Shown here piece after piece: positions 10,661 through 20,310 of a stretch of DNA of 64,000 nucleotides (the stretch's first letter is position 1; each line of letters opens with the position of its first letter). The notes beneath the pieces are model-generated. The model searched no databases. It was not told the origin of the DNA and saw only the letters and a program-made list of their open reading frames with translations. The position numbers were made by a program, and so were the translations under genes. This DNA is from an uncultured Candidatus Saccharibacteria bacterium. GTDB lineage: Bacteria > Patescibacteriota > WWE3 > 2-01-FULL-39-13. The stretch covers positions 728,935 to 792,934 of the forward strand of contig OZ246395.1 in the NCBI GenBank assembly GCA_965230915.1, written 5' to 3'.

Positions 10661-11566
10661 TTATTTCGTAAAAAGTATAGAAAAATAACTTGTAGTCTGA
10701 ATTGTATTATTTTCTAAAATTTCTCCGGAGTTTGTATTAAACAAAAGCTCCTGTTTTTTTGCGTTAATTGATTCCATTAAGTGCAAAAGTAACCCAATAG
10801 AATCAGGGCTATCTACATAATCATTATTTAAATTGCTTAAACTATAATAATCGTAACTACTCATTATTTTTTGAGTAACTACATCATTTGCCTTCGCCTG
10901 ATCTGCATTTAAATAATGTGAAAAATCGACGGCAGCAATAACTACGGTATCTTCGTCAATATACTTTTGTAATTCTACAGTTAAATTCGAAATATCTTCT
11001 TGGGAAGTAAAACCGCTTAACACAACCGGGATAACCTGAGCCTCGGGCAAATAATATTTGATGTAGTGCAAAATTCCTCCAATTGAATGCTCACCTATTA
11101 CTACATCGTCATTTTCTATTAATGTGTTAGATTCAACTAACATAGAAATATCAGCATAATCAGATGCGAGTATTCCATGTTCTGTTTTCCAATTCGCCTT
11201 CGATGTTATTGGCCGAATACCTCCACGTTCATGATGATTTGGCCCAACTAAAATTATCTTTTTAGGATTTTGCGCAGATAATTTTTCAAAAAAGTCTGAA
11301 AGTATGTATCCGGGCAATAAGTGGTGCGGAATTATTCCGCCATAAATTTTGTTTCCACTGTATGAACTTTTCACCTTTTGGGCTTTTACAATTCCTTCCT
11401 GAAAATCTTTTGCGGAATAAAATCTTGCGTTTAAAACTTTGTCGCTTTGGCGTGCATTATTAACGCCTAATATTCTTAATTTGTCTAAATCTATCGGATA
11501 AATTGTGCCTAGTACAACGCCCAATATGGCAAACGCACAGATAATAAGGCTAAGTTTGAGGTTCAT
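10661..11566 (-). CDS. MEMO1-family protein (AmmeMemoRadiSam system protein B-like) with N-terminal signal anchor
   Basis: Motifs GGIIPHH, LVGPNHHERGG and AAVDFSHY (MEMO1/LigB-like fold). N-terminal hydrophobic segment LSLIICAFAILGVVLG. The start overlaps the upstream giant gene by 17 nt. Confidence 0.75.
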   Translation of the reverse strand: MNLKLSLIICAFAILGVVLGTIYPIDLDKLRILGVNNARQSDKVLNARFYSAKDFQEGIVKAQKVKSSYSGNKIYGGIIPHHLLPGYILSDFFEKLSAQNPKKIILVGPNHHERGGIRPITSKANWKTEHGILASDYADISMLVESNTLIENDDVVIGEHSIGGILHYIKYYLPEAQVIPVVLSGFTSQEDISNLTVELQKYIDEDTVVIAAVDFSHYLNADQAKANDVVTQKIMSSYDYYSLSNLNNDYVDSPDSIGLLLHLMESINAKKQELLFNTNSGEILENNTIQTTSYFSILFTK

Positions 11567-14500
11567 TTTTCTTACTTAAATCTCTTCTTGGTTTTCTGAT
11601 TACCTTTACTAAGAATACTATTATTGCGATTGTTGCAATTCCATACAATACTATTTGCCATTTTGGTGTACGTGCAACGGCAACTTTTCCGGATTCTATT
11701 AAATTAGCATCGTCTTCTATTAAGTATGGATATGCATATGTGGCGAAGTTTCGATAATCGTTACGCAAACTCTGATCGCCTAGTGCATTTGCATCAGCCA
11801 AATCTGTGCTTTCTTTTGTAATACTGATTTTTGCGGCATCTGATCTTCCGTGAATTTCAGGCGAATACATTAACGAAGCCGTAGCAGGAGGCACTTCATA
11901 TGTTCCCTCGGTTATCGCACGTGCCTTGTAATTTAGATAAGAATATCCGCTCCTATAGCTGTAGGTGTATCTGATGGCACCATTTTGCGTATATTCGTCA
12001 CCTGAATAATAGTCATAACTATCACCTGAGCTAAATTGTTCATTATTAAACGATTCATTTACAGGAACTAGTCCGGCAGGCAACTCATCTTGAATTACTC
12101 CATATCGGCTTTCTGACTCGTAATTATTCTTAACTTGAACATATACATCAACTAAATCACCAACAGCAATTGACTTACCTGCACCTTTTTCACTTACGTA
12201 CGCTCTCTTTACGTCTAAACCTGTCGACATAGCCTTTGTATTTGGATCTGTATGGAATTCCTTAACCATCATCGAAGTCAGCAATTCACCTGTGCCATCC
12301 TTGGTAATTTCTAAATTAGAACCACCAGCTTTTATAGAATAACTTGGAATTGTTATTTCTTTAGGTGCTTGCTCAAGACTTGTAAATCTTCCGGTTGATA
12401 ATATTGCCCCATCTAAAGAGACTGTATATGAATAATTTGTGTTAGCTAAATTTTGAACTTTTGCGTATTCAGAAATCGAAGCCATAACTTGAGCGGTTCC
12501 ATGTGTATTGCCCCAGAAATAATTTCCTTTTGCCTGATTTAAATATTTAATTGTTTCTTTTAGAAGTTCTTTTTCTGATCCATTAGCAATTATTGCCCGT
12601 ACAGCTAACGCAGTTGCACTTTGATTAGTACTGAATGTTTCAGAATTATTACTTTCCCAATGGGCTAAACCAGATTGTCTTTTAGCCGAAGAGACTAATT
12701 TTGTTAAGCCTGACTGGTTCGAATCTTTAATACCACGGTTTGAATTTATTATGACAGCCAAAGCGTTTGCCTCGATTGATAACCCTTCAAAATCATTTAT
12801 AGTTTCAGTGTTCTTTCCTAATACTTCGAGGCCATATATTGAATAAACTTTTGCAGATTTATTTTCAGAATTTAATTTTGATTTAAAATAATTTTCTGCG
12901 TTATCTAGTGTTGTTTGGTTTACTTCGTATCCAAGCTGTTTGGCCTTCATAAGATTTTCTACAATATAAGCAGATAAATACTCATTTGAATCTCCGACAA
13001 AAACCCAGGTCCAACCGCCATCACCTTGTTGATGGTCTTCGATGCGTTTAACTCCGTCTTTTAGAATCTCGTCCATGTTTTTATCGACCATTGCAGATGC
13101 AAACACTTTAGGATTGCTTCTTGCAACAATAGCAGGAACAAAACGGCTTGTGGTTTGTTCCATACATCCGTATGGATAATCAACCAAATAATCCATTGCC
13201 GGTCTTAGTGACCCTAATATATCCGCAGAAACACTTAATTTAGTGCTGCTTAAATCGTTAACTGCATCAGATGAATATTTTGCTTGATATGAAGCATTAT
13301 CCTGTTTGCTTTCGACGCGCTCTTCGTAAAATCCGAATTTCTTAATTGGAATAACTTGAGCTATGGTGTCAGAATTTTCTTCTGCTGATTTAGAAACAGC
13401 CGAATAAGTAAATTTAGCTTTATCATCTACTTTAATTGGCTCAACATTCCACGAAACTGTTGCTGATTTATTTGGCTCGATTCTTACTTCTTGAGTTGCA
13501 GAAGGTAATATATTTGCAGCCTCTGATCTTAGGGTCACATTAAAAGTATCAGCATTCTTGGTATAGTTTTGAACTAAAGCAGTCAAAATCGTTGTATCGC
13601 GTTCTCTTATGATATTGGGAATTGTAGGTCGAACAATCACATTTTTGCCTACAACAATTTCTTCTTTGGCAATTCCAACTTGAGTAGTTGTATTTGCTGC
13701 GATTCCAGCGATTACCCAGGTTGTTAAATTATCTGGAAGTTTAAATGATACGCTGGCTTTTCCTTCAAGGTCAGTTCTAAGTGATGGATTCCAGTATGCA
13801 GTATCTTTAAACACAGTTCTTGTGTCACCTTTTTGGTTGTGTACCCAAACTCCGCCGGCAAAATATGTGTGATATTTTTCAACTTCTAAATTGTATACAT
13901 CAACTGATCTATTTATTATCTCGATTGAATTTACATGTACGTATTTACCTTCGTCACTAAGTAATAAGTCTCCTTTTTGTACAGTTCCGGCTTCTTGCCA
14001 AGTATTGTTAATCCACATCACATGATTAGGAGTAACCTTTATGCTTCCGTTTAAAATCATGTAGCCGTTTACTGACTTTTTGAAAGTCTCTGTTACGGTT
14101 GCTTCAACTAATTTTGTGTCATCTTCGCCGGCTTTAGTTAGAACTTTATCTCCGACTTTTATGTCTTCGATCGAAACCAATCCATTCTTGGTTAATACTT
14201 TAGTGTCGCCTACAAAACATCCACCGCCGCTTTCTGCACCTGAAGAACTTATACCTTGTAATGAATTTGTAGAATTTGTGTCGTTGTATCTTTCTGACCA
14301 AAACCTATCCAGAATATCGTAGTTATTTTGATCAACCAGTTCAAAGATCGCTTTATCTACTGTCCATAAAGCCATGTCGGTTGAGACAGGTTTATTGGTG
14401 CTGTCAGTTGTAGTAACGTCGACTGTAATATCTTCACCCGGGCCATATCGCGACCCACCGCGTGGAGTAATCTGTACATTTATTTTCTTGTTTTCGGTTG

Positions 14501-16910
14501 AAATTACAATGTTTTCGGAACTGCTTATTATAGATTTTCCATCAAAAGATGTAGCCACAACAAAAACGTTTGGCGAATCAGTGTTAACAAGGGGAACGTC
14601 TATGTTTGCAGTTCCATTTTCAATTCTAGTTGTAAAGTATCTTTGTGTTCGTCCTCTTTCTAAAGTTATTAATGCATCACGGTTGGACTTATCTTCAGTT
14701 GTAATTAACACTTTTGCTGTATCTTCAGGGTTATAGAGTTTTTTATCTACGCTAACGCGCATATTTGATTGGCCATAGTCGCCAAACCCGTAATATGAGG
14801 AATATTCTTTTTCAGCAATATAGAAACTAAAATTACGACTTATTTTATTTCCTATAGAATCTGAATATTTAATGGTTATCGTATAACTTCCAGTTTCTGA
14901 TGGTGTAAATTTATAAGTTAAATTTCCTTCTCCATCTGTTTTTATATTTTTCGTATCAATTTCACCTCTAACTTCCTTATATGATGGATATTTTTGATTT
15001 TCTTCATAAACGGCTTCGTATCTCATCCATGTACCGGAAATTTCTACATTTATATTTGAAACTTTGCTGTTGTTTCGGTATGCAACAATTTGCATTGGAA
15101 TTTCAAATTGCTTATTAACAACTCCTCCATATGGAGCATCTTCTTGTAGATAAACATTCGATTCGCCTTTGTAAAAGAGGATGTTTTTCCTGGCAAAACT
15201 TGGGTTTCCGGAACCATTATCGTATTCAGCTTCGATAGTTAAAATCTGGTTTGATTTATACGTATCACCCAAATTTATATCTTCATCAAAAATTGCTTCG
15301 CCATTATCATTAAACTCTAGCTCTCCGTGTTTAAATTCGCTTCCGTACCAATATCCGTATCGATAATCGTCGCTAAGACCTTCGTTTTGGTAGTCTCGAT
15401 AGTAATAATAATCGTAATAATCAGCAGAATAGATTCTATAGCTTACCTTTCCTTCGGTAATTGGTTGACCAGAGAAATAATTTCCTAAAGCTTTAAAATA
15501 TAATCTGTCTCCGGACACATAATCTTTGTCCTCAACAGAAAGATCTATGTTGTATTCGGGTTTTCTATAATATTCGACCTGAAAGTATTCGCTTGCCGGA
15601 TAATAATAGTCATCTGGATCATGCTGAACTATTGGGTATTCGATGCTAACACTGTAATCACCGGTTTTTGCGTTTTCTGGTAATTTATAAGATCCATAAA
15701 TTGTTCCCTCTGGGGTTATATTCATTCGTGCGCTATATACAACCGATGTATCTTCCCAACCATCTTTGATTTGTACTAAAGCTTCACCGCTTGGGATAGT
15801 GTATCTGGCGTCGTCATCAGACCTTATGATCGCTTTAAAATTTACTGTGTTTCCCGGCATATAAAGCGGGCGATCAGTAAAAATGAAGAATCTTGTGTTT
15901 ATTTCTTTTTCTCTAAAGTAATCATAGTTATAGCCGTAGTCTACGTATTGTAAATTTAGAGGAATAACTGCCACTTCATTTCCGCGGTATACAACAGCTA
16001 AATCACCTCTACTTAGTATTGGAGTTGTTGCAATTCCTTCTGAATTAAACCTTCCATTTGCGACTTCAGTTACTTTGTCAGCCAAATTAAAAACTTTTAT
16101 GTTGCCGTCGTCGATGCTTTCGTTAACTTTTAAATTTTGTCCCCAATAGACAATTTCATTGTTGCCTTCTTTAGAAACAACTGCGTAAGTCGACCTTACA
16201 ATAAAGGCACCATCATTAGTTTTATTAGCCGTATCAGATGCGGTAGCTCTTACAAAATAAATTCCAGATTCATCTAGCGGAAGTACCACTTTAGTATCTG
16301 ATGAATTTTTATCTGCAATATTAACTTCTAATTCTTTTACTAATTGTGAATTGCTTTCATTAAAAGGATTTTTTGTTTTATAGTCTTCTGTTTCATACAC
16401 AAGGGAATTTAAAACGTCAGATTCGGATGCGCGATACAGTTTAACCGTAACTTTACCTGTAAATGCACGGTTTGACAGATAAATAGCCGGTTCTTCAAGA
16501 GAAGTAAGCGAAATTAATTGAGAAGGAGAATAATCGCTTCCGTTTTCTAAAATAATAAGTTCAGGATCTTGTTGGTAATAGTAATCTCCAAAATTATTCT
16601 GCTGGCTGGTGTTCTGATTACTTTGAGTGGTTTGAGTATTATTTACTGCAGGTATAGCATTTTGCCTTTGAATATCCTGATAAATTGCAGCCAAAACATA
16701 CACTGTTGAAAATATTAGAGACGAAAGAACAATAAAAACCACTCTACGAAATCTTTTTGACTCTTTGAATCTTTTAAATGGATTTTTACTTTTTTTGACT
16801 TCTTGAGGTTGGTTGTTTTTGTTTTTTTTGATCGGTTCAGCGGTCATGTTTGCGTGATCACCATTTTCTTCTGAAATAGCTTGATTTAAATCGGGTTGAG
16901 ACTTAGCCAT
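11550..16910 (-). CDS. alpha-2-macroglobulin family thioester-containing giant surface protein with an embedded Hint/BIL domain. It has both an N-terminal signal anchor and a C-terminal TM anchor.
   Basis: 1786 aa. Thioester motif YGCMEQ (CxEQ) at aa 1249-1252. Conserved pre-bait segment MALWTVDKAIFEL and post-bait segment TRTVFKDTAYWNPSL...LPDNLTTW. TED-like HQQGDGGW. N-terminal TM (RRVVFIVLSSLIFSTVYVLAAIY), C-terminal TM (IVLYGIATIAIIVFLV) plus a basic tail. Tyr-rich low-complexity runs. AGAGG RBS 6 nt upstream of the ATG. Confidence 0.85.
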   Translation of the reverse strand: MAKSQPDLNQAISEENGDHANMTAEPIKKNKNNQPQEVKKSKNPFKRFKESKRFRRVVFIVLSSLIFSTVYVLAAIYQDIQRQNAIPAVNNTQTTQSNQNTSQQNNFGDYYYQQDPELIILENGSDYSPSQLISLTSLEEPAIYLSNRAFTGKVTVKLYRASESDVLNSLVYETEDYKTKNPFNESNSQLVKELEVNIADKNSSDTKVVLPLDESGIYFVRATASDTANKTNDGAFIVRSTYAVVSKEGNNEIVYWGQNLKVNESIDDGNIKVFNLADKVTEVANGRFNSEGIATTPILSRGDLAVVYRGNEVAVIPLNLQYVDYGYNYDYFREKEINTRFFIFTDRPLYMPGNTVNFKAIIRSDDDARYTIPSGEALVQIKDGWEDTSVVYSARMNITPEGTIYGSYKLPENAKTGDYSVSIEYPIVQHDPDDYYYPASEYFQVEYYRKPEYNIDLSVEDKDYVSGDRLYFKALGNYFSGQPITEGKVSYRIYSADYYDYYYYRDYQNEGLSDDYRYGYWYGSEFKHGELEFNDNGEAIFDEDINLGDTYKSNQILTIEAEYDNGSGNPSFARKNILFYKGESNVYLQEDAPYGGVVNKQFEIPMQIVAYRNNSKVSNINVEISGTWMRYEAVYEENQKYPSYKEVRGEIDTKNIKTDGEGNLTYKFTPSETGSYTITIKYSDSIGNKISRNFSFYIAEKEYSSYYGFGDYGQSNMRVSVDKKLYNPEDTAKVLITTEDKSNRDALITLERGRTQRYFTTRIENGTANIDVPLVNTDSPNVFVVATSFDGKSIISSSENIVISTENKKINVQITPRGGSRYGPGEDITVDVTTTDSTNKPVSTDMALWTVDKAIFELVDQNNYDILDRFWSERYNDTNSTNSLQGISSSGAESGGGCFVGDTKVLTKNGLVSIEDIKVGDKVLTKAGEDDTKLVEATVTETFKKSVNGYMILNGSIKVTPNHVMWINNTWQEAGTVQKGDLLLSDEGKYVHVNSIEIINRSVDVYNLEVEKYHTYFAGGVWVHNQKGDTRTVFKDTAYWNPSLRTDLEGKASVSFKLPDNLTTWVIAGIAANTTTQVGIAKEEIVVGKNVIVRPTIPNIIRERDTTILTALVQNYTKNADTFNVTLRSEAANILPSATQEVRIEPNKSATVSWNVEPIKVDDKAKFTYSAVSKSAEENSDTIAQVIPIKKFGFYEERVESKQDNASYQAKYSSDAVNDLSSTKLSVSADILGSLRPAMDYLVDYPYGCMEQTTSRFVPAIVARSNPKVFASAMVDKNMDEILKDGVKRIEDHQQGDGGWTWVFVGDSNEYLSAYIVENLMKAKQLGYEVNQTTLDNAENYFKSKLNSENKSAKVYSIYGLEVLGKNTETINDFEGLSIEANALAVIINSNRGIKDSNQSGLTKLVSSAKRQSGLAHWESNNSETFSTNQSATALAVRAIIANGSEKELLKETIKYLNQAKGNYFWGNTHGTAQVMASISEYAKVQNLANTNYSYTVSLDGAILSTGRFTSLEQAPKEITIPSYSIKAGGSNLEITKDGTGELLTSMMVKEFHTDPNTKAMSTGLDVKRAYVSEKGAGKSIAVGDLVDVYVQVKNNYESESRYGVIQDELPAGLVPVNESFNNEQFSSGDSYDYYSGDEYTQNGAIRYTYSYRSGYSYLNYKARAITEGTYEVPPATASLMYSPEIHGRSDAAKISITKESTDLADANALGDQSLRNDYRNFATYAYPYLIEDDANLIESGKVAVARTPKWQIVLYGIATIAIIVFLVKVIRKPRRDLSKKNEPQT
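13155..13166 (-). other. thioester site CMEQ (CxEQ) of the alpha-2-macroglobulin homolog
   Basis: tgt atg gaa caa on the minus strand, in the context DYPYGCMEQTTSRF. Confidence 0.8.
13836..14219 (-). other. Hint (intein-like / BIL-type) domain, aa 898-1025 of the alpha-2-macroglobulin homolog
   Basis: Block A CFVGDTKVL (Cys1), block B KVTPNHVMW, block F VYNLEVEKYHTYFA, block G GGVWVHN. Codons cac-aac-caa show that the +1 residue is Gln, not Cys/Ser/Thr. Confidence 0.8.
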
Positions 16911-17006
16911 TTGACCTCTTGTCTATATTATTTCTGAAAAGCTTCTGAATGTATAGTGCCTATTCAGTTAGCATTACCCTAACCAATTCCCTATAATGAA
17001 TTTAAT

Positions 17007-17462
17007 TTAGCGTTCACACATTTCTTTTAGCTTTTGTAAGCTATTAGCCCAGCTAGTTTCAAATTCAGATTTCATTTCCGCATTAACATCCACCTCGACT
17101 GTAAGTTCTGTTACTCCATCTTCTTCTTTAAAAGTGTAATTCTCAAAAGCTGGAGTCCATTGTTTGGCTAAATCACTTGTCGTATCTTCAACTCCGTTGC
17201 CATAAATTGCGATATGTTCTAAAGATACAAATTCGTGAGGTCGGTTTTCTCTAACCATCGCTACCATTCCGCCTTCGCCGGGTGTACCATCGGGATTCGG
17301 ACCAAGAAACAAAATCTTTGAACCTTTGTCCCAGCTGCCTTTAAAATAGGAACCTGGGTTAAAAGTTGCAGTCCATTCCTTATAAGATTCTGCGTTTAAC
17401 ATTGTGTCCCACACTTTTTCGACCGGAGCATTAATTTTTATTGATGAACGTATTTTTTCCAT
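17007..17462 (-). CDS. SRPBCC superfamily protein (AHSA1/START-like)
   Basis: 151 aa. N-terminal I.INAPVEKVWD...W pattern typical of SRPBCC/Aha1-like proteins. Confidence 0.7.
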   Translation of the reverse strand: MEKIRSSIKINAPVEKVWDTMLNAESYKEWTATFNPGSYFKGSWDKGSKILFLGPNPDGTPGEGGMVAMVRENRPHEFVSLEHIAIYGNGVEDTTSDLAKQWTPAFENYTFKEEDGVTELTVEVDVNAEMKSEFETSWANSLQKLKEMCER

Positions 17463-17468
17463 ATTTAA

Positions 17469-18296
17469 TTATTCTGGATACCAATTAAGTAAAACTACTT
17501 CTATATTTTCGCTTCCAAAATCAACCAATTCTTTAAATTTATTAACATCTGCTAGTCCTTCTTGCTGGCGATAATGATATGGATAAACAACCTGTGGCTT
17601 AAAAGCCAATACCGCACTTGCTGCGTCTTCGACCGACATTGTATAAGGAAGATTCATCGGCACAAAAGCCATATTTATATTTTTTAGAGATTTCATTTCG
17701 TCGGTCGGACCGGTGTCGCCCGCAACATAAACACGATAATTATCTTTTTCGATAATGTAGCCATTTCCACGACCTTTTATATGCGAAGCATCGGCGGCTT
17801 CAGGAACGTTATACATTGGAACACCCGTTATATTAAACCCTTCAAAATTCTTAGTTTCTCCATTTGCTAAAACTTCGGTTGCATCTTTTAAATTTTGAGG
17901 CATCATGTCATAAACAGCTTGTGGAGCAACAATTTTGGCGTCGCTCAAAATATTTGTGAGCGTTTCCGGGCTGTAGTGATCACCGTGTATATCGGTTAAC
18001 AAAATAAGGTCGGGAGATGTTTGACCTTCAAAAGCTTCGGCACCACTCGTTGGGTCGGTATAAATCACTTTATCTTGCCATTTTAAAAGAACTGTTGCAT
18101 GCATAATTGGAGTCACCGTAACCGGAGATTCGGTTGGCATTGAAGTATTTGGTGTGTCTGATGAACCGCCAGGGTTGTAAGTTGAAGTTTGGCTGTATCT
18201 ATTTGATACCAATGAAGGATCTTTGGTCGCAGAGTATATGTAATATATGACTGCGACTACGAATACGATAAGGAGTGTCCATGCGAATCGGCTCAT
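17469..18296 (-). CDS. MBL-fold metallo-hydrolase with N-terminal TM anchor
   Basis: LLTDIHGDHYSP (D/HxHxDH variant) and downstream VAGDTGP. N-terminal TM LLIVFVVAVIYYIY. Confidence 0.75.
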   Translation of the reverse strand: MSRFAWTLLIVFVVAVIYYIYSATKDPSLVSNRYSQTSTYNPGGSSDTPNTSMPTESPVTVTPIMHATVLLKWQDKVIYTDPTSGAEAFEGQTSPDLILLTDIHGDHYSPETLTNILSDAKIVAPQAVYDMMPQNLKDATEVLANGETKNFEGFNITGVPMYNVPEAADASHIKGRGNGYIIEKDNYRVYVAGDTGPTDEMKSLKNINMAFVPMNLPYTMSVEDAASAVLAFKPQVVYPYHYRQQEGLADVNKFKELVDFGSENIEVVLLNWYPE

Positions 18297-18316
18297 AAAA
18301 GCATGATAGCATAAGA

Positions 18317-19084
18317 CTAAAAAGTAGATATAAATCCCCTTAATTTTTGAGGAAAAATATCGTCTAAAGCTAGAATATCAGAACTATATATTTCAATAAG
18401 ACCTAAATTATAATTTTTATATAACTCTTGTTTCCGTTTTTTCCTCTCTAAATATTCCTTATCTTTAAGACCCCAGTATTCAATATATATAACATCATGA
18501 CTAGTAGAGCTTGGTATAAAAAAATCGCAATACATTTCTTCTTTAATCGGAACTTTCTTCTCATACCCGTGTAAAATTTTACTGTTAAATAACCAATTAT
18601 CTATAATTAGCTCATCCATACTTCTAACTCTATGGCCATCGTCTGCAATATATTTGGCCGGAAATTTATTTCTAAAAACATTACCTAGATGATCTTCTCG
18701 TTGAGTGGACCTATACATATTGTCCAACGCCTGTGTAATATCAGGTTTTAACAATACAGGCATAAAATCTCGAAATTTAATTAAGTTTTCTATATCCGAT
18801 TTTGAAATAGGATTGTAATTCTCAACTCTTTCTACTTTAATTTGCCATGGAAATTTCCCTCCCCAAGCTTCTTTGACAATATTGACGCTACATTTAGATA
18901 TTGCCCTGAATTTTCCATGCAATAAACCAGATGTGTAGTTATAAAGGAAAAGAGTATCTCCAACATTAATATCTTCAGTGTACGGTTTGTACTTTAGAGT
19001 TCCTCCAAATAGCATTCGGTTGAAGCACTCTTTTTCCGTCGCATTTGAACATAAAAATATATAGCTTTTCTTTGCATCATTCAT
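18317..19084 (-). CDS. DCD-domain (PUA-like, EVE-related) protein with C-terminal Vsr/DUF559-like endonuclease-like domain
   Basis: N-terminal YIFLCSN..EKECF..MLFGG.....I.VGDTLFLYNYTSGLLHGKFRA...FPWQIKV matches the DCD signature (FGLP / LFLFNY / PAQV blocks). C-terminal CDFFIP..(11)..VIYIEYWG.....R......L...LGLIEIYSSDI resembles the YxvDF...IEvDG...R...L..GW.VlR core of Vsr-like PD-(D/E)xK domains; this is tentative. The start was set at Met16 to clear tRNA-Ser. Confidence 0.6.
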   Translation of the reverse strand: MNDAKKSYIFLCSNATEKECFNRMLFGGTLKYKPYTEDINVGDTLFLYNYTSGLLHGKFRAISKCSVNIVKEAWGGKFPWQIKVERVENYNPISKSDIENLIKFRDFMPVLLKPDITQALDNMYRSTQREDHLGNVFRNKFPAKYIADDGHRVRSMDELIIDNWLFNSKILHGYEKKVPIKEEMYCDFFIPSSTSHDVIYIEYWGLKDKEYLERKKRKQELYKNYNLGLIEIYSSDILALDDIFPQKLRGFISTF

Positions 19085-19089
19085 ATTTC

Positions 19090-19177
19090 TGGCGGAGGGG
19101 ACAGGATTCGAACCTGCGGTGTTATTCACACACTACCTTTCCAAGATAGCGCACTAGACCAACTATGCGACCCCTCC
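19090..19177 (-). tRNA. tRNA-Ser (anticodon GGA), type II with long variable arm, CCA encoded
   Basis: GGAGGGG acceptor, anticodon loop UUGGAAA, variable arm GTGTGTGAATAACAC, T-loop TTCGAAT, 3' CCCCTCCGCCA. Confidence 0.9.
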
Positions 19178-19206
19178 AAAGGCTTCGCAAACACCGATAT
19201 TATAGC

Positions 19207-19965
19207 TTACCCAAGCGCTTCTATTAAGGCTCTGGCCACATCGTCTATTCCACTTGCTTCTATTGTATCTTCGTGAGAAGTACCTGCGGCATGCAATGCC
19301 CAAGGGCTCGGCAATGCAACCTGGTAGGCATAGCCTGCTTCGCGTGAAGCTTTAACGTCTCCCGTTCGGTTATCACCTACTGAAATTGCTTGGAATCCCT
19401 GTAAACCCAAGTTATCTAGGCTTTGTTTCCAATGTTCAGGCCCTTTTTGTGAATTTTCGTGTGCAATTGTTATTGAATCTAAATGTCGGTCTAATTCCGT
19501 TGTTTGAAGCTTAAAGTAACTCCAAGGTTCGTTTGCGTGGGTTACTAAACCGCGCTTAATTCCTCCATCGCCTAATGTTTGAAGAAGCTCAGTTGCACCC
19601 TCGCGCAGTTCAGGAACAATTCGATATATATCATGCAAAATTGAAATGTTTTCGATAAGAAAGTCATGATGCCCGTAAATATCGGCAACTTCTTTTATAA
19701 TATTGTGCCAAATCCCAGGGCCAACTCCATGTGAAGTGACAATTTTATTTGTGGCTTTGACCCAATCGGCCGAATAGGCTTCCATATTAAATCCGAAGGT
19801 TGAATATACTCTCTGGTGTAATTCACGAATCTGCCTTTGGAATATTATGTTTGTATGAATTAGCGTATCGTCGAGGTCGAAAACAACTGCTTTGATTCCA
19901 CGATTTCTAAGTACTTCGACTAATTTAGATGGCTGCTCCTGCGGCTCGGGGTTTAAAAAATTCAT
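19207..19965 (-). CDS. HAD-superfamily hydrolase
   Basis: Motif I VVFDLDDTL and motif IV VGDNRTGD. Confidence 0.8.
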   Translation of the reverse strand: MNFLNPEPQEQPSKLVEVLRNRGIKAVVFDLDDTLIHTNIIFQRQIRELHQRVYSTFGFNMEAYSADWVKATNKIVTSHGVGPGIWHNIIKEVADIYGHHDFLIENISILHDIYRIVPELREGATELLQTLGDGGIKRGLVTHANEPWSYFKLQTTELDRHLDSITIAHENSQKGPEHWKQSLDNLGLQGFQAISVGDNRTGDVKASREAGYAYQVALPSPWALHAAGTSHEDTIEASGIDDVARALIEALG

Positions 19966-20030
19966 AAAATTTTGGCAGGAAATTGTTTATGAAGTTATTT
20001 ATATAATTTTTTATGAAAGAAAGCTATTAG

Positions 20031-20084
20031 AAATAAAAAAAGACACTAGGCTTCAATCGTTAGATTGTGACACAGCCTAGTGTC
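20031..20084 (-). terminator. rho-independent terminator for the minus-strand operon 22062..20110
   Basis: Perfect 11-bp stem GACACTAGGCT / AGCCTAGTGTC with a 21-nt loop, then TTTTTTTATTT on the minus strand. Confidence 0.75.
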
Positions 20085-20109
20085 GAGGTGTAAGGTTTTG
20101 ACCTTACGC

Positions 20110-20310
20110 TTACGCAACGTCGATTGGGGCGATGCCAATTGCCATGCCTACGCATAGCCATGGTCTGCCACCATACCTAACGATACGTGTTGGAAAGATC
20201 ACCGTCGGGAAGAATTTTTTTAAAGATTGCTCTTCGGCGATGTGAACAGTAACTTCAGCCTGACTTTGATCCAAACTGGGATCATTCCGACCAGGCACCA
20301 AATCACACAT
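20110..20310 (-). CDS. small hypothetical protein (66 aa, GC-rich)
   Basis: Internal ATG preceded by a strong SD (AAAGAAAGGAG-7nt-ATG), 16 nt after the stop of the upstream mini-ORF. The raw ORF 20110..20382 overlaps that ORF out of frame. It is uncertain whether this is a real gene. Confidence 0.35.
   Translation of the reverse strand: MCDLVPGRNDPSLDQSQAEVTVHIAEEQSLKKFFPTVIFPTRIVRYGGRPWLCVGMAIGIAPIDVA

What the first reader, a model, noticed from the sequence alone, without database searches (positions are those of the whole stretch)
18317..19084. DCD (PUA-like modified-base reader) domain fused to a Vsr/DUF559-like nuclease-like domain, 5 nt from tRNA-Ser: candidate modification-dependent restriction enzyme
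- The N-terminal roughly 110 aa match the DCD signature closely: YIFLCSN..EKECF..MLFGG, LFLYNYTSGLLHGKF and FPWQIKV, against plant DCD FGLP / LFLFNY..LHGIF / PAQV.
- DCD belongs with EVE/YTH/ASCH in the PUA-like class of modified-nucleic-acid readers. In prokaryotes these are typically fused to nucleases and predicted to act as modification-dependent (type IV-like) restriction or RNA-targeting enzymes.
- The C-terminal part (YCDFFIP-x11-VIYIEYWG-x..R-x..L-x..LGLIEIYSSDI) resembles the core of Vsr-like/DUF559 PD-(D/E)xK-fold endonuclease domains (D-F...IEvDG...R...L..GW.VlR).
- The gene abuts the 3' end of tRNA-Ser(GGA), a classic insertion hotspot. No integrase is seen.
Basis: partly seen in the sequence, partly recalled or inferred. 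Interest (0 to 1): 0.55.

Follow-up and report, generated by a model that had tools for sequence, protein, structure and literature searches.

The report
DCD reader fused to a nuclease
This small gene joins a domain predicted to recognise chemically modified bases to a DNA-cutting domain, so it is most likely a stand-alone enzyme that destroys modified foreign DNA; the design has already been predicted in the literature but never tested.

Summary
Window 18317..19084 (-) encodes a 255-aa protein.

- **Reader domain.** Residues 7-103 match Pfam DCD (PF10539, E=1.6e-23). The AlphaFold model of this part matches YTH and EVE-like PUA folds.
- **Nuclease domain.** Residues ~144-251 fold as a PD-(D/E)xK nuclease; the nearest solved structure is the Bax1 nuclease domain. 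E158, D187, E202 and K218 are invariant. D187 and E202 align to Bax1 active-site residues D305 and E318.
- **Family placement.** The nuclease is not in Pfam and is not a Vsr or DUF559 member by sequence. It is the module of the untested PADLOC defence candidates PDC-S69 and PDC-S68.
- **Distribution.** About 85 clusters at 50% identity carry the same fusion, some with tandem DCD. They are scattered over Patescibacteria and archaea, with no conserved neighbour and no partner methyltransferase.
- **tRNA link.** The 5-nt spacing to tRNA-Ser is real but specific to this genome. There is no integrase and no att repeat, and only 2 of 62 homologous loci have a tRNA within 1 kb.
- **Prior work.** Bell, Wolf and Koonin (2020) already described prokaryotic DCD-PD(D/E)xK fusions as predicted restriction enzymes for modified DNA.

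Best reading: a stand-alone type IV-like modification-dependent endonuclease, a new member of a computationally known, untested kind. The ligand and the substrate (DNA or RNA) are unknown.

The parts
18317..19084 (-). Complete CDS of the 255-aa DCD-nuclease fusion protein (ATG 19082-19084, TAG 18317-18319)
   Evidence: ORF list, translation and codon check. An identical protein, P0001, is on record from a 945,287-bp contig. The homologue alignment supports this start.
18776..19066 (-). DCD (Development and Cell Death) domain, residues 7-103: the PUA-like putative modified-base reader
   Evidence: Pfam PF10539, E=1.6e-23. The AF2 model has pLDDT 93. Foldseek matches MJECL36, PH1033 and YTH-m6A complexes at E 5e-7 to 1e-4. 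C12, T16, N49, G57, A61 and Q81 are invariant, and W74 is nearly invariant, in 54 relatives.
18656..18775 (-). Helical linker, residues 104-143 (helices 114-125 and 132-140). From residue ~119 it is already part of the module shared with PDC-S69.
   Evidence: Secondary structure of the models. The PDC-S69 match starts at residue 119.
18332..18655 (-). PD-(D/E)xK-fold nuclease core, residues 144-251 (motifs DGHxVRSxxExxIDNWL, CDF, YIEYWG and YxxRKxxK)
   Evidence: PADLOC PDC-S69 at 3.6e-39, PDC-S68 at 4.6e-11 and HEAT_CxxC_PD-DEXK at 2.4e-8. Foldseek hits are Bax1, TnsA, the R2 RLE, I-Bth0305I, Hjc and a DUF559 structure. Viral hits are DUF2726, TnsA_N, DUF559 and 'restriction enzyme' models. 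A profile hit to Bax1 scores E=0.013.
18611..18613 (-). E158, predicted metal-binding residue on helix alpha1
   Evidence: Invariant in both alignments. It lies 29 residues before D187, as AfBax1 E275 lies 30 residues before D305. The equivalence rests on this spacing, not on an alignment.
18524..18526 (-). D187 (CDF motif), predicted catalytic Asp
   Evidence: Invariant. It aligns with AfBax1 D305, whose Ala mutant strongly reduces the nuclease-domain activity; the equivalent SsBax1 D301A abolishes activity of the XPB-Bax1 complex.
18479..18481 (-). E202 (YIEYWG motif), predicted catalytic Glu. The classical Lys two residues later is replaced by W204.
   Evidence: Invariant. It aligns with AfBax1 E318.
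18431..18433 (-). K218, an invariant Lys on the following helix and candidate for the relocated catalytic Lys
   Evidence: Invariant. The catalytic role is an inference.
19090..19177 (-). tRNA-Ser(GGA) with encoded CCA, co-directional with the CDS. Its 3' end lies 5 nt upstream of the ATG.
   Evidence: ARAGORN, Rfam RF00005 at 53 bits and direct reading of the sequence.
19199..19227 (-). Promoter-like site (TTAATA-17-TATAAT) upstream of the tRNA. It may drive tRNA-Ser together with the DCD-nuclease gene and the genes downstream.
   Evidence: Consensus scan scoring 10 of 12; no terminator-like site lies between the tRNA and the CDS. This is a consensus match only. The count of such sites in the region is no higher than in shuffled sequence.

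Best explanation
The gene encodes a stand-alone, single-polypeptide, type IV-like modification-dependent endonuclease.

**Proposed mechanism.**
- The N-terminal DCD domain is a PUA-like beta-barrel related to EVE and YTH. It binds a modified base that is flipped out of incoming nucleic acid, most probably DNA.
- That binding positions the C-terminal PD-(D/E)xK nuclease, whose predicted metal site is E158/D187/E202 with K218, to cut nearby.
- The enzyme probably acts as a dimer or higher oligomer, as MspJI- and PvuRts1I-type enzymes do.
- The host escapes because its own DNA lacks the mark, so no partner methyltransferase is needed.

**What is shown:** the two domains, their folds, the conserved acidic residues, the conserved fusion, the patchy distribution and the lack of any obligatory partner gene.

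**What is inferred:** binding of a modified base, the identity of the mark, DNA rather than RNA as substrate, the oligomeric state and the defence role.
For: - **Reader.** The DCD domain passes Pfam's threshold by a wide margin. Its model matches YTH domains solved with m6A and archaeal EVE-like proteins. Three relatives also hit the Pfam EVE model.
- **Nuclease.** The fold is PD-(D/E)xK. D187 and E202 align to the experimentally supported Bax1 active-site residues D305 and E318. E158, D187, E202 and K218 are invariant in 54 fusion proteins and in 43 proteins that include versions without DCD.
- **Conserved fusion.** The fusion is kept as a unit in about 85 clusters at 50% identity, some with tandem DCD.
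- **Swappable front end.** The same nuclease module follows other N-terminal domains: a Zn-ribbon, and the ANT/wHTH-like N-terminus of PADLOC PDC-S69. It also ends the ~1200-aa PDC-S68. The PDC candidates were picked because they sit embedded inside BREX, DISARM, type I RM or Hma systems.
- **Distribution.** Patchy across Patescibacteria, one Gammaproteobacteria-labelled MAG, Thermoplasmata, Thaumarchaeota and Bathyarchaeota.
- **No obligatory partner.** Among 113 neighbours of 38 dereplicated loci, no family recurs more than twice. About 7% hit defence models, including an MmeI-type IIG enzyme, GmrSD, HEC-06 and Zeta toxin.
- **Evolutionary rate.** In two related genomes that keep the gene in the same neighbourhood, it is 47% identical, against 59-64% for three of four flanking genes compared.
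- **Literature.** Prokaryotic DCD-PD(D/E)xK fusions were already predicted to restrict modified DNA (PMC7641849).
Against: - No DCD domain has a demonstrated ligand in the papers I could search.
- Most loci are not in recognisable defence islands.
- In this window the gene sits among ordinary genes (HAD hydrolase, MBL-fold hydrolase, SRPBCC) and is probably co-transcribed with a tRNA.
- The DCD pocket residues are well conserved across the family. That fits one fixed ligand better than an arms-race reader.
- The nearest solved nuclease relative, Bax1, is a repair enzyme and not a restriction enzyme.
- The classical Lys of the ExK motif is absent. The role of K218 is inferred without a geometric check.
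- The compositional sign of foreign origin is weak. GC is 31.0% against 36.9% for the window, but GC3 of 25% equals that of the neighbouring A2M-like gene.
Confidence: 0.55

Rival explanations
1. It is a DNA-repair or genome-maintenance nuclease. The DCD domain recognises a damaged or aberrantly modified base (alkylated, oxidised or deaminated), and the Bax1/Vsr-like nuclease nicks next to it to start repair.
For: - The nearest solved relatives of the nuclease are repair or structure-specific nucleases: the Bax1 NER nuclease, Hjc and the Vsr-like fold.
- The DCD pocket is conserved across the family.
- Most loci are not defence islands.
- Two related loci keep the gene in a neighbourhood that also holds LexA, a Y-family polymerase and PIF1.
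- The gene persists in a genome whose only known contig is 945 kb, so probably a small genome.
Against: - The distribution is extremely patchy. Only 6 full-length hits were found among 185,579 species representatives, admittedly through a search limited to one peptide pattern.
- The gene is absent next to the MBL orthologue in the nearest available relatives.
- It diverges faster than three of four flanking genes compared.
- The same nuclease module is swapped among sensor domains in defence candidates.
- LexA and the polymerase are near the gene but not adjacent to it.
Confidence: 0.14
2. It is an RNA-targeting enzyme. The DCD domain reads a modified RNA base (m6A or m5C, or a tRNA or rRNA modification), and the PD-(D/E)xK domain acts as a ribonuclease, either for defence or for RNA quality control.
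For:
- Bell et al. infer RNA binding for eukaryotic DCD domains.
- PD-(D/E)xK ribonucleases exist; cap-snatching and splicing endonucleases and Can2 appear among the weaker fold hits.
- In this window the gene starts 5 nt after a tRNA and is probably co-transcribed with it.
Against: - tRNA adjacency is not a family trait: 2 of 62 loci have a tRNA within 1 kb, about what chance predicts.
- The strongest nuclease fold hits are DNA enzymes (Bax1, TnsA, the R2 RLE, I-Bth0305I).
- An archaeal YTH fused to McrB binds m6A in DNA, as cited, so a YTH-like fold does not imply RNA.
Confidence: 0.12
3. It is a ligand-gated abortive-infection nuclease. The DCD domain binds a free modified nucleotide or a breakdown product released during infection, and this switches on non-specific DNA degradation.
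For: - A PUA-domain defence module was recently reported to be triggered by free m6-dAMP (PMC12871103, seen).
- The conserved pocket fits a small-molecule ligand.
- The gene acts alone, without a partner.
Against: - Nothing in the sequence points to allosteric control or filament formation.
- No experiment on DCD domains supports nucleotide binding.
Confidence: 0.07
4. It is a selfish or decaying element with no cellular role: a homing-type endonuclease or a catalytically dead remnant.
For: - Fold hits include homing-type and mobile-element nucleases (I-Bth0305I, TnsA, the R2 RLE, a group I intron endonuclease).
- The GC content is low.
Against: - The ORF is intact and keeps every residue that is invariant in the family.
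- There is no intron, intein or transposon context and there are no terminal repeats.
- The fusion is conserved across about 85 diverged clusters.
Confidence: 0.04

Closest known systems
Prokaryotic DCD-PD(D/E)xK fusion proteins described computationally by Bell, Wolf and Koonin 2020 (BMC Biol 18:159, PMC7641849)
   Same: The architecture is the same: an N-terminal DCD domain of the PUA-like superfamily fused to a PD-(D/E)xK nuclease. The prediction is the same: restriction of modified DNA. The pattern is the same: rare and patchy, largely in archaea (compare).
   Different: That paper reports the domain as rare and mostly in archaea and hyperthermophilic bacteria. Here many members come from Patescibacteria and from soil or groundwater metagenomes. 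The paper does not place the nuclease family; here it is tied to the PDC-S69/PDC-S68 module and to Bax1-like active-site residues. I could not confirm from the text held that their example belongs to this exact family.
PADLOC phage defence candidates PDC-S69 and PDC-S68 (Payne et al. 2024 preprint, 10.1101/2024.01.29.577857)
   Same: The C-terminal nuclease module is shared. Residues 119-251 match PDC-S69 profile positions 156-284 of 289 at E=3.6e-39, and the end of the ~1200-aa PDC-S68 at 4.6e-11.
   Different: True PDC-S69 proteins (P0092, P0097) match the model end to end and have an ANT/wHTH-like N-terminus instead of DCD. So the window protein is a sensor-swapped relative and not a member. 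The PDC systems are themselves untested.
Characterised PUA-superfamily modification-dependent restriction enzymes: MspJI (SRA-like + PD-(D/E)xK), PvuRts1I/AbaSI (Vsr-like nuclease + SRA), VcaM4I/TspA15I (EVE-HNH), TagI (SRA-HNH)
   Same: A single polypeptide joins a PUA-like modified-base reader to a nuclease, with no methyltransferase partner (the MspJI and PvuRts1I details are from general knowledge).
   Different: The nuclease belongs to a different PD-(D/E)xK family. No biochemical data exist.
Bax1 (DUF790) nuclease domain of the archaeal XPB-Bax1 repair complex (PDB 6P66, 6P4O)
   Same: It is the best solved structural and profile match. The PDF...YIE(x)xG...YLxxK motif region is shared, and D187 and E202 align with D305 and E318.
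   Different: The match covers only 72-94 aligned columns at 18-22% identity and E~1e-2 to 1e-4. Bax1 is a 370-480-aa multi-domain partner of the XPB helicase. No XPB-like helicase is encoded next to this gene.
Vsr / DUF559 (PF03852 / PF04480) endonucleases
   Same: They share the PD-(D/E)xK superfamily. At the fold level the model resembles the DUF559 structure 3HRL (TM 0.66 on the target) and the Vsr-like I-Bth0305I (TM 0.73), and a viral DUF559 model.
   Different: Neither Pfam model hits this protein at E<=10, nor any of 43 relatives at E<=1.

Membership tests
Pfam DCD / Dev_Cell_Death (PF10539) | Score above the curated gathering threshold of the family profile | tested here: met
   83.3 bits against a cut-off of 27.8, E=1.6e-23. 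Residues 7-103 cover profile positions 2-101 of 126. The same domain is called in all full-length relatives.
PUA-like superfamily (EVE/YTH/ASCH/SRA readers) | PUA-like beta-barrel fold of the reader domain | tested here: met
   The AF2 model has pLDDT 93. Foldseek probability is 1.00 to MJECL36, PH1033 and many YTH domains, with TM 0.6-0.7 on the target.
PUA-like superfamily (EVE/YTH/ASCH/SRA readers) | Binding of a modified base in a dedicated pocket | not testable with these tools
   Only conservation of candidate pocket residues (N49, W74, Q81 and others) is seen. No experimental DCD ligand was found in the literature searched.
PD-(D/E)xK nuclease superfamily | Restriction-endonuclease-like alpha-beta-beta-beta-alpha-beta core | tested here: met
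   The model of residues 110-255 has pLDDT 87. It hits Bax1, TnsA, the R2 RLE, I-Bth0305I, Hjc, Can2 and a DUF559 structure, and viral DUF2726, TnsA_N and DUF559 models.
PD-(D/E)xK nuclease superfamily | Conserved acidic metal-binding residues and a Lys at the active site | tested here: inconclusive
   E158, D187 and E202 are invariant. D187 and E202 align to Bax1 D305 and E318. The canonical Lys of ExK is replaced by W204.
Vsr (PF03852) / DUF559 (PF04480) | Match to the family profile | tested here: not met
   Neither model hits at E<=10 for this protein. No Pfam nuclease family appears among the families listed for the 43 relatives at E<=1. The similarity is at the fold level only.
PADLOC PDC-S69 (single-gene phage defence candidate) | Full-length match to the 289-position model | tested here: not met
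   Only profile positions 156-284 are matched. Genuine members P0092 and P0097 match positions 1-289. The nuclease module is shared and the sensor domain differs.
Type IV (modification-dependent) restriction enzymes | Cleavage that requires a modified base in the substrate | not testable with these tools
   This needs biochemistry or genetics; see the next steps.
Type IV (modification-dependent) restriction enzymes | Reader-nuclease fusion that works without a cognate methyltransferase | tested here: met
   The fusion is conserved. No methyltransferase recurs among 113 neighbours of 38 loci. The one MmeI-type hit is a self-contained type IIG enzyme. None lies next to the gene in the window.
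Type IV (modification-dependent) restriction enzymes | Accessory, patchy distribution and association with defence genes | tested here: inconclusive
   The patchy distribution is clear. Only about 7% of neighbours hit defence models, and most loci look ordinary.
tRNA-linked genomic island / integrative element | Integrase, and a direct repeat of the tRNA 3' end marking the far boundary | tested here: not met
   There is no integrase-like gene between 11.5 and 24.1 kb. No repeat of the tRNA end occurs in 16900-20200. The gene is flanked by spacers of 5 nt and 20 nt.

The most novel reading that the evidence does not exclude
The DCD domain may not read DNA of invaders. It may instead read a modified RNA base or a free modified nucleotide, which would make this 255-aa protein a minimal RNA-modification-guided or ligand-gated nuclease. 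Because the DCD signature is so well conserved between this family and plant DCD proteins, finding its ligand would give the first biochemical function for DCD domains, including those of plant NRP/B2-type cell-death proteins.
Probability: 0.15. Interest if true: 0.7.

Novelty: new member of a known kind. Interest (0 to 1): 0.38.

Why it matters
No DCD domain has an experimentally defined ligand in the literature I could search. Yet DCD proteins are long-known players in plant development, stress and cell-death responses. They have also been proposed as evolutionary links between prokaryotic restriction of modified DNA and eukaryotic reading of RNA modifications.

A compact bacterial DCD-nuclease offers a simple read-out: which modified DNA or RNA does it cut? 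That could settle what DCD domains bind. It could also yield a new modification-dependent restriction enzyme for epigenetic mapping.

For this genome the finding itself is modest. It is one more stand-alone candidate defence gene, in a lineage that is probably Patescibacteria, and it belongs to an architecture already predicted in 2020.

Tried and rejected
**Readings rejected.**
- Alternative start at GTG 19129: it overlaps the tRNA, and homologues start at the ATG.
- Integrative island at tRNA-Ser: no integrase, no att repeat, tight spacers, and no tRNA association in 62 homologous loci.
- Composition as strong proof of foreign origin: GC is in the lowest 1% of windows, but GC3 equals that of a neighbouring gene, so I treat it as weak.
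- Phage origin: one weak tblastn hit in 50,697 phage records and one weak PHROG hit.

**Searches that gave little or failed.**
- Sequence search of the PDB with the single protein gave nothing useful. Only the profile search found Bax1.
- The empty-site test in close relatives could not be done. The best orthologues of the neighbouring MBL gene are only 59-63% identical and not syntenic. A metagenome scan with that neighbour found nothing.
- The genome scan with the 54-sequence alignment failed for lack of a conserved stretch. It was repeated with 14 sequences.
- The cluster-member look-up returned no organism names.
- A literature search for 'PDC-S69' found nothing. The origin of the PDC models came from the Payne et al. 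preprint.
- Plasmid hits cover the nuclease module only.
- I could not check the spatial clustering of E158, D187, E202 and K218, because model coordinates are not exposed.
Full report
**1. What is in the sequence**

The minus strand of window 18317..19084 carries an intact 255-codon ORF, with ATG at 19082-19084 and TAG at 18317-18319. The ORF finder's longer version starts at a GTG at 19129. That start lies inside tRNA-Ser, so I rejected it. An alignment of 54 relatives starts a few residues before the conserved GYIFLCS motif, which supports the ATG.

ARAGORN places tRNA-Ser(GGA) at 19090..19177 on the same strand. Rfam confirms it, ending at 19093, so the CCA is encoded. The minus strand reads ...CCCCTCCGCCA-GAAAT-ATG, so the 5-nt spacing is real. 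The only error is the spacer between YCDFFIP and VIYIEYWG, which is 6 residues and not 11.

**2. The N-terminal domain**

Residues 7-103 match Pfam Dev_Cell_Death (PF10539) at E=1.6e-23, with 83.3 bits against a cut-off of 27.8. An AlphaFold2 model built on the 54-sequence alignment is confident (mean pLDDT 93). A Foldseek search of the PDB with the whole model returns only reader domains:
- the archaeal EVE-like proteins MJECL36 and PH1033;
- many YTH domains, several solved with m6A (probability 1.00, TM 0.6-0.7 on the target).

Three relatives also touch the Pfam EVE model.

**3. The C-terminal domain**

No Pfam model hits this half. That holds for the window protein at E<=10 and for 43 relatives at E<=1. 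NCBIfam has nothing useful either.

PADLOC does match it. Residues 119-251 match the C-terminal part of PDC-S69 (E=3.6e-39), the end of the ~1200-aa PDC-S68 (4.6e-11) and HEAT_CxxC_PD-DEXK (2.4e-8).

A separate model of residues 110-255 (pLDDT 87) hits PD-(D/E)xK nucleases in the PDB:
- the Bax1 nuclease domain (best hit, E=4.5e-4);
- TnsA, the restriction-like endonuclease of R2 retrotransposons and Hjc;
- the Vsr-like homing enzyme I-Bth0305I (TM 0.73 on the target);
- the DUF559 structure 3HRL (TM 0.66).

Against predicted viral structures it hits DUF2726, TnsA_N, DUF559, DUF1064 and 'restriction enzyme' proteins.

A profile of the family also finds Bax1 by sequence alone (E=0.013). That alignment places D187 (CDF) on AfBax1 D305 and E202 (YIEYWG) on E318. 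The Bax1 structure paper names E275, D305 and E318 as the likely metal-binding site of the nuclease domain. It reports that D305A strongly reduces that domain's activity, and that the equivalent SsBax1 D301A abolishes activity of the XPB-Bax1 complex (PMC7293015). E158 lies 29 residues before D187, as E275 lies 30 before D305.

E158, D187, E202 and K218 are invariant in 54 fusion proteins, and also in a 43-sequence set that includes versions without DCD. D149, H151, H172, W204 and G205 are invariant too. The classical Lys of the ExK motif is replaced by W204. The invariant K218 on the next helix may substitute for it, but I could not check the geometry.

In short, the C-terminus is a PD-(D/E)xK-fold nuclease that looks catalytically competent. 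It is related to Vsr and DUF559 only at the superfamily level.

**4. The family and its distribution**

The word-indexed search found about 70 clusters (90% identity) with the same two-domain layout at 34-54% identity to the window protein. Some 383-409-aa versions carry two DCD domains. The exhaustive profile search of 1.84 billion representatives lists about 85 clusters (50% identity) that cover both domains.

Among 185,579 species-representative genomes, a search limited to one peptide pattern found six full-length hits. They are in Gottesmanbacteria, Parcubacteria, another Patescibacteria MAG, a MAG labelled Gammaproteobacteria, Thermoplasmata and Thaumarchaeota. More than 270 further hits cover the nuclease module only, in cyanobacteria, Planctomycetota, Chloroflexota, Vibrio and others.

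That module also follows a Zn-ribbon (proteins of ~193 aa) and an ANT/wHTH-like N-terminus. The latter proteins match PDC-S69 end to end. Copies on plasmids lie in accessory regions, one of them next to a UvrD-like helicase. Phages hardly carry it.

The PDC models are 145 untested candidates. They were chosen because the genes are embedded inside BREX, DISARM, type I RM or Hma systems (bioRxiv 10.1101/2024.01.29.577857).

**5. Genomic context**

*In the window.* The neighbours are a HAD hydrolase (19207..19965), an MBL-fold hydrolase (17469..18296, 20 nt downstream), an SRPBCC/AHSA1 protein, a giant alpha-2-macroglobulin-like protein, a glycosyltransferase and a 5'-3' exonuclease. None is an integrase, a methyltransferase or a known defence gene. 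No direct repeat of the tRNA end exists nearby. A promoter-like site lies just upstream of the tRNA, and no terminator-like site separates the tRNA from the gene. Co-transcription is therefore plausible, though it rests on consensus matches only.

The gene's GC content is 31.0%, against 36.9 +/- 2.7% for windows of the same size, which puts it in the lowest 1%. Its GC3 (25%) equals that of the A2M-like gene, so the compositional signal is weak.

*In other genomes.* Seven annotated contexts show no shared neighbour. I then took up to two ORFs on each side in 38 dereplicated loci, 113 proteins in all. No Pfam or PADLOC family recurs more than twice. About 7% of these neighbours hit defence models: an MmeI-type IIG enzyme, GmrSD, HEC-06, mad2, PRTase and Zeta toxin. 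Only 2 of 62 loci have a tRNA within 1 kb, about what chance predicts, and none has one immediately upstream.

Two related contigs keep the gene in a similar neighbourhood. There the protein is 47% identical, while LexA, a PPIase and YgjP are 59-64% identical and LapA is 41%. So there is some vertical inheritance, with faster divergence than most neighbours.

The window genome has no close relatives on record. The best orthologues of its MBL neighbour are 59-63% identical and are not syntenic. An empty-site comparison was therefore impossible. From those hits, the organism is probably a member of Patescibacteria; this is an inference.

**6. Interpretation**

The simplest reading joins the parts. 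A PUA-like reader is fused to a competent-looking nuclease, conserved as a unit, needs no partner gene and is patchily distributed. Its nuclease module is re-used behind other sensor domains in defence candidates.

This is the design of characterised single-chain modification-dependent restriction enzymes, such as the EVE-HNH enzyme VcaM4I and SRA-HNH enzymes. Bell, Wolf and Koonin (2020) made the same prediction for prokaryotic DCD domains, explicitly noting fusion to PD(D/E)xK phosphodiesterases (PMC7641849). The 2019 architecture-guided screen of PUA-nuclease fusions did not include DCD. I found no experimental work on any DCD-nuclease or any DCD ligand.

I give the stand-alone type IV-like reading 0.55. 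The rivals are:
- a lesion-directed repair nuclease (0.14), suggested by the Bax1/Vsr-like relatives, the conserved pocket and the mostly ordinary contexts;
- an RNA-targeting enzyme (0.12), suggested by the YTH-like fold and the local tRNA linkage, although that linkage is not a family trait;
- a nucleotide-gated abortive-infection nuclease (0.07), by analogy with a recently reported PUA module that senses m6-dAMP (PMC12871103);
- a selfish or dead element (0.04).

**7. Verdict**

The two-domain call and the candidate restriction function stand as predictions. The Vsr/DUF559 assignment holds only at the superfamily level, and the tRNA hotspot idea is not supported.

The gene is a new member of a kind that is already known computationally and is experimentally untouched. 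Its main value is as a compact test case for finding out what DCD domains bind.

Noticed in passing
window 11550..16910 (-): A 1786-aa alpha-2-macroglobulin-like protein (MG2, bait region, A2M, TED and MG10 domains) carries a Hint/PT-HINT domain at residues ~890-1026, just before the A2M domain. The insert begins GGG|CFVGDTKV and ends VWVHN|Q, so no Cys, Ser or Thr follows it. It looks more like a bacterial intein-like (BIL) domain than a canonical splicing intein.
   Followed up: no
window 19084..19227 (-): tRNA-Ser(GGA) encodes its own CCA. A promoter-like site lies upstream of it, inside the 3' end of the HAD gene. No terminator-like site precedes the DCD-nuclease ATG 5 nt downstream. If the two are co-transcribed, tRNA 3' processing would leave an almost leaderless mRNA. 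The MBL gene 20 nt further on also lacks an obvious Shine-Dalgarno sequence.
   Followed up: partly
P0004, P0044, P0058, P0072 and about 20 representatives: Versions of the same family of 383-435 aa carry two tandem DCD domains in front of one nuclease domain. They could act as a built-in 'dimer' of readers.
   Followed up: partly
P0071-P0120; L008-L081; L091, L092: The nuclease module is absent from Pfam but is widespread behind other N-terminal domains: a Zn-ribbon (~193 aa), an ANT/wHTH-like domain (= PADLOC PDC-S69) and a ~1200-aa PDC-S68 protein. It is common in cyanobacteria, Planctomycetota, Chloroflexota and Vibrio. On a Methylotuvimicrobium plasmid it sits next to a UvrD-like helicase.
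   Followed up: partly
P0097, P0103 (Aliarcobacter skirrowii): Full-length PDC-S69-type proteins of Aliarcobacter are named 'glycerol kinase' in NCBI and UniRef. They have no such domain, so this is probably an annotation error that has spread.
   Followed up: no
L085 and L089 (metagenome contigs, ~51% GC): Two related contigs keep the DCD-nuclease gene in a neighbourhood that also holds LexA, a Y-family polymerase or PIF1 helicase, a PPIase, YgjP-like, LapA-domain and MliC genes. The DCD-nuclease is 47% identical between them, against 59-64% for three of those neighbours and 41% for LapA.
   Followed up: partly
L087 (JGI contig Ga0207952_1000008), 1..7000: In one locus the gene lies just downstream of a run of nucleotide-metabolism genes (dCMP deaminase, thymidylate synthase, dUTPase/dCTP deaminase, SHMT, HIT) and a Zeta-toxin-like kinase. 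Whether this is chance or a link to base-modification chemistry was not examined.
   Followed up: no
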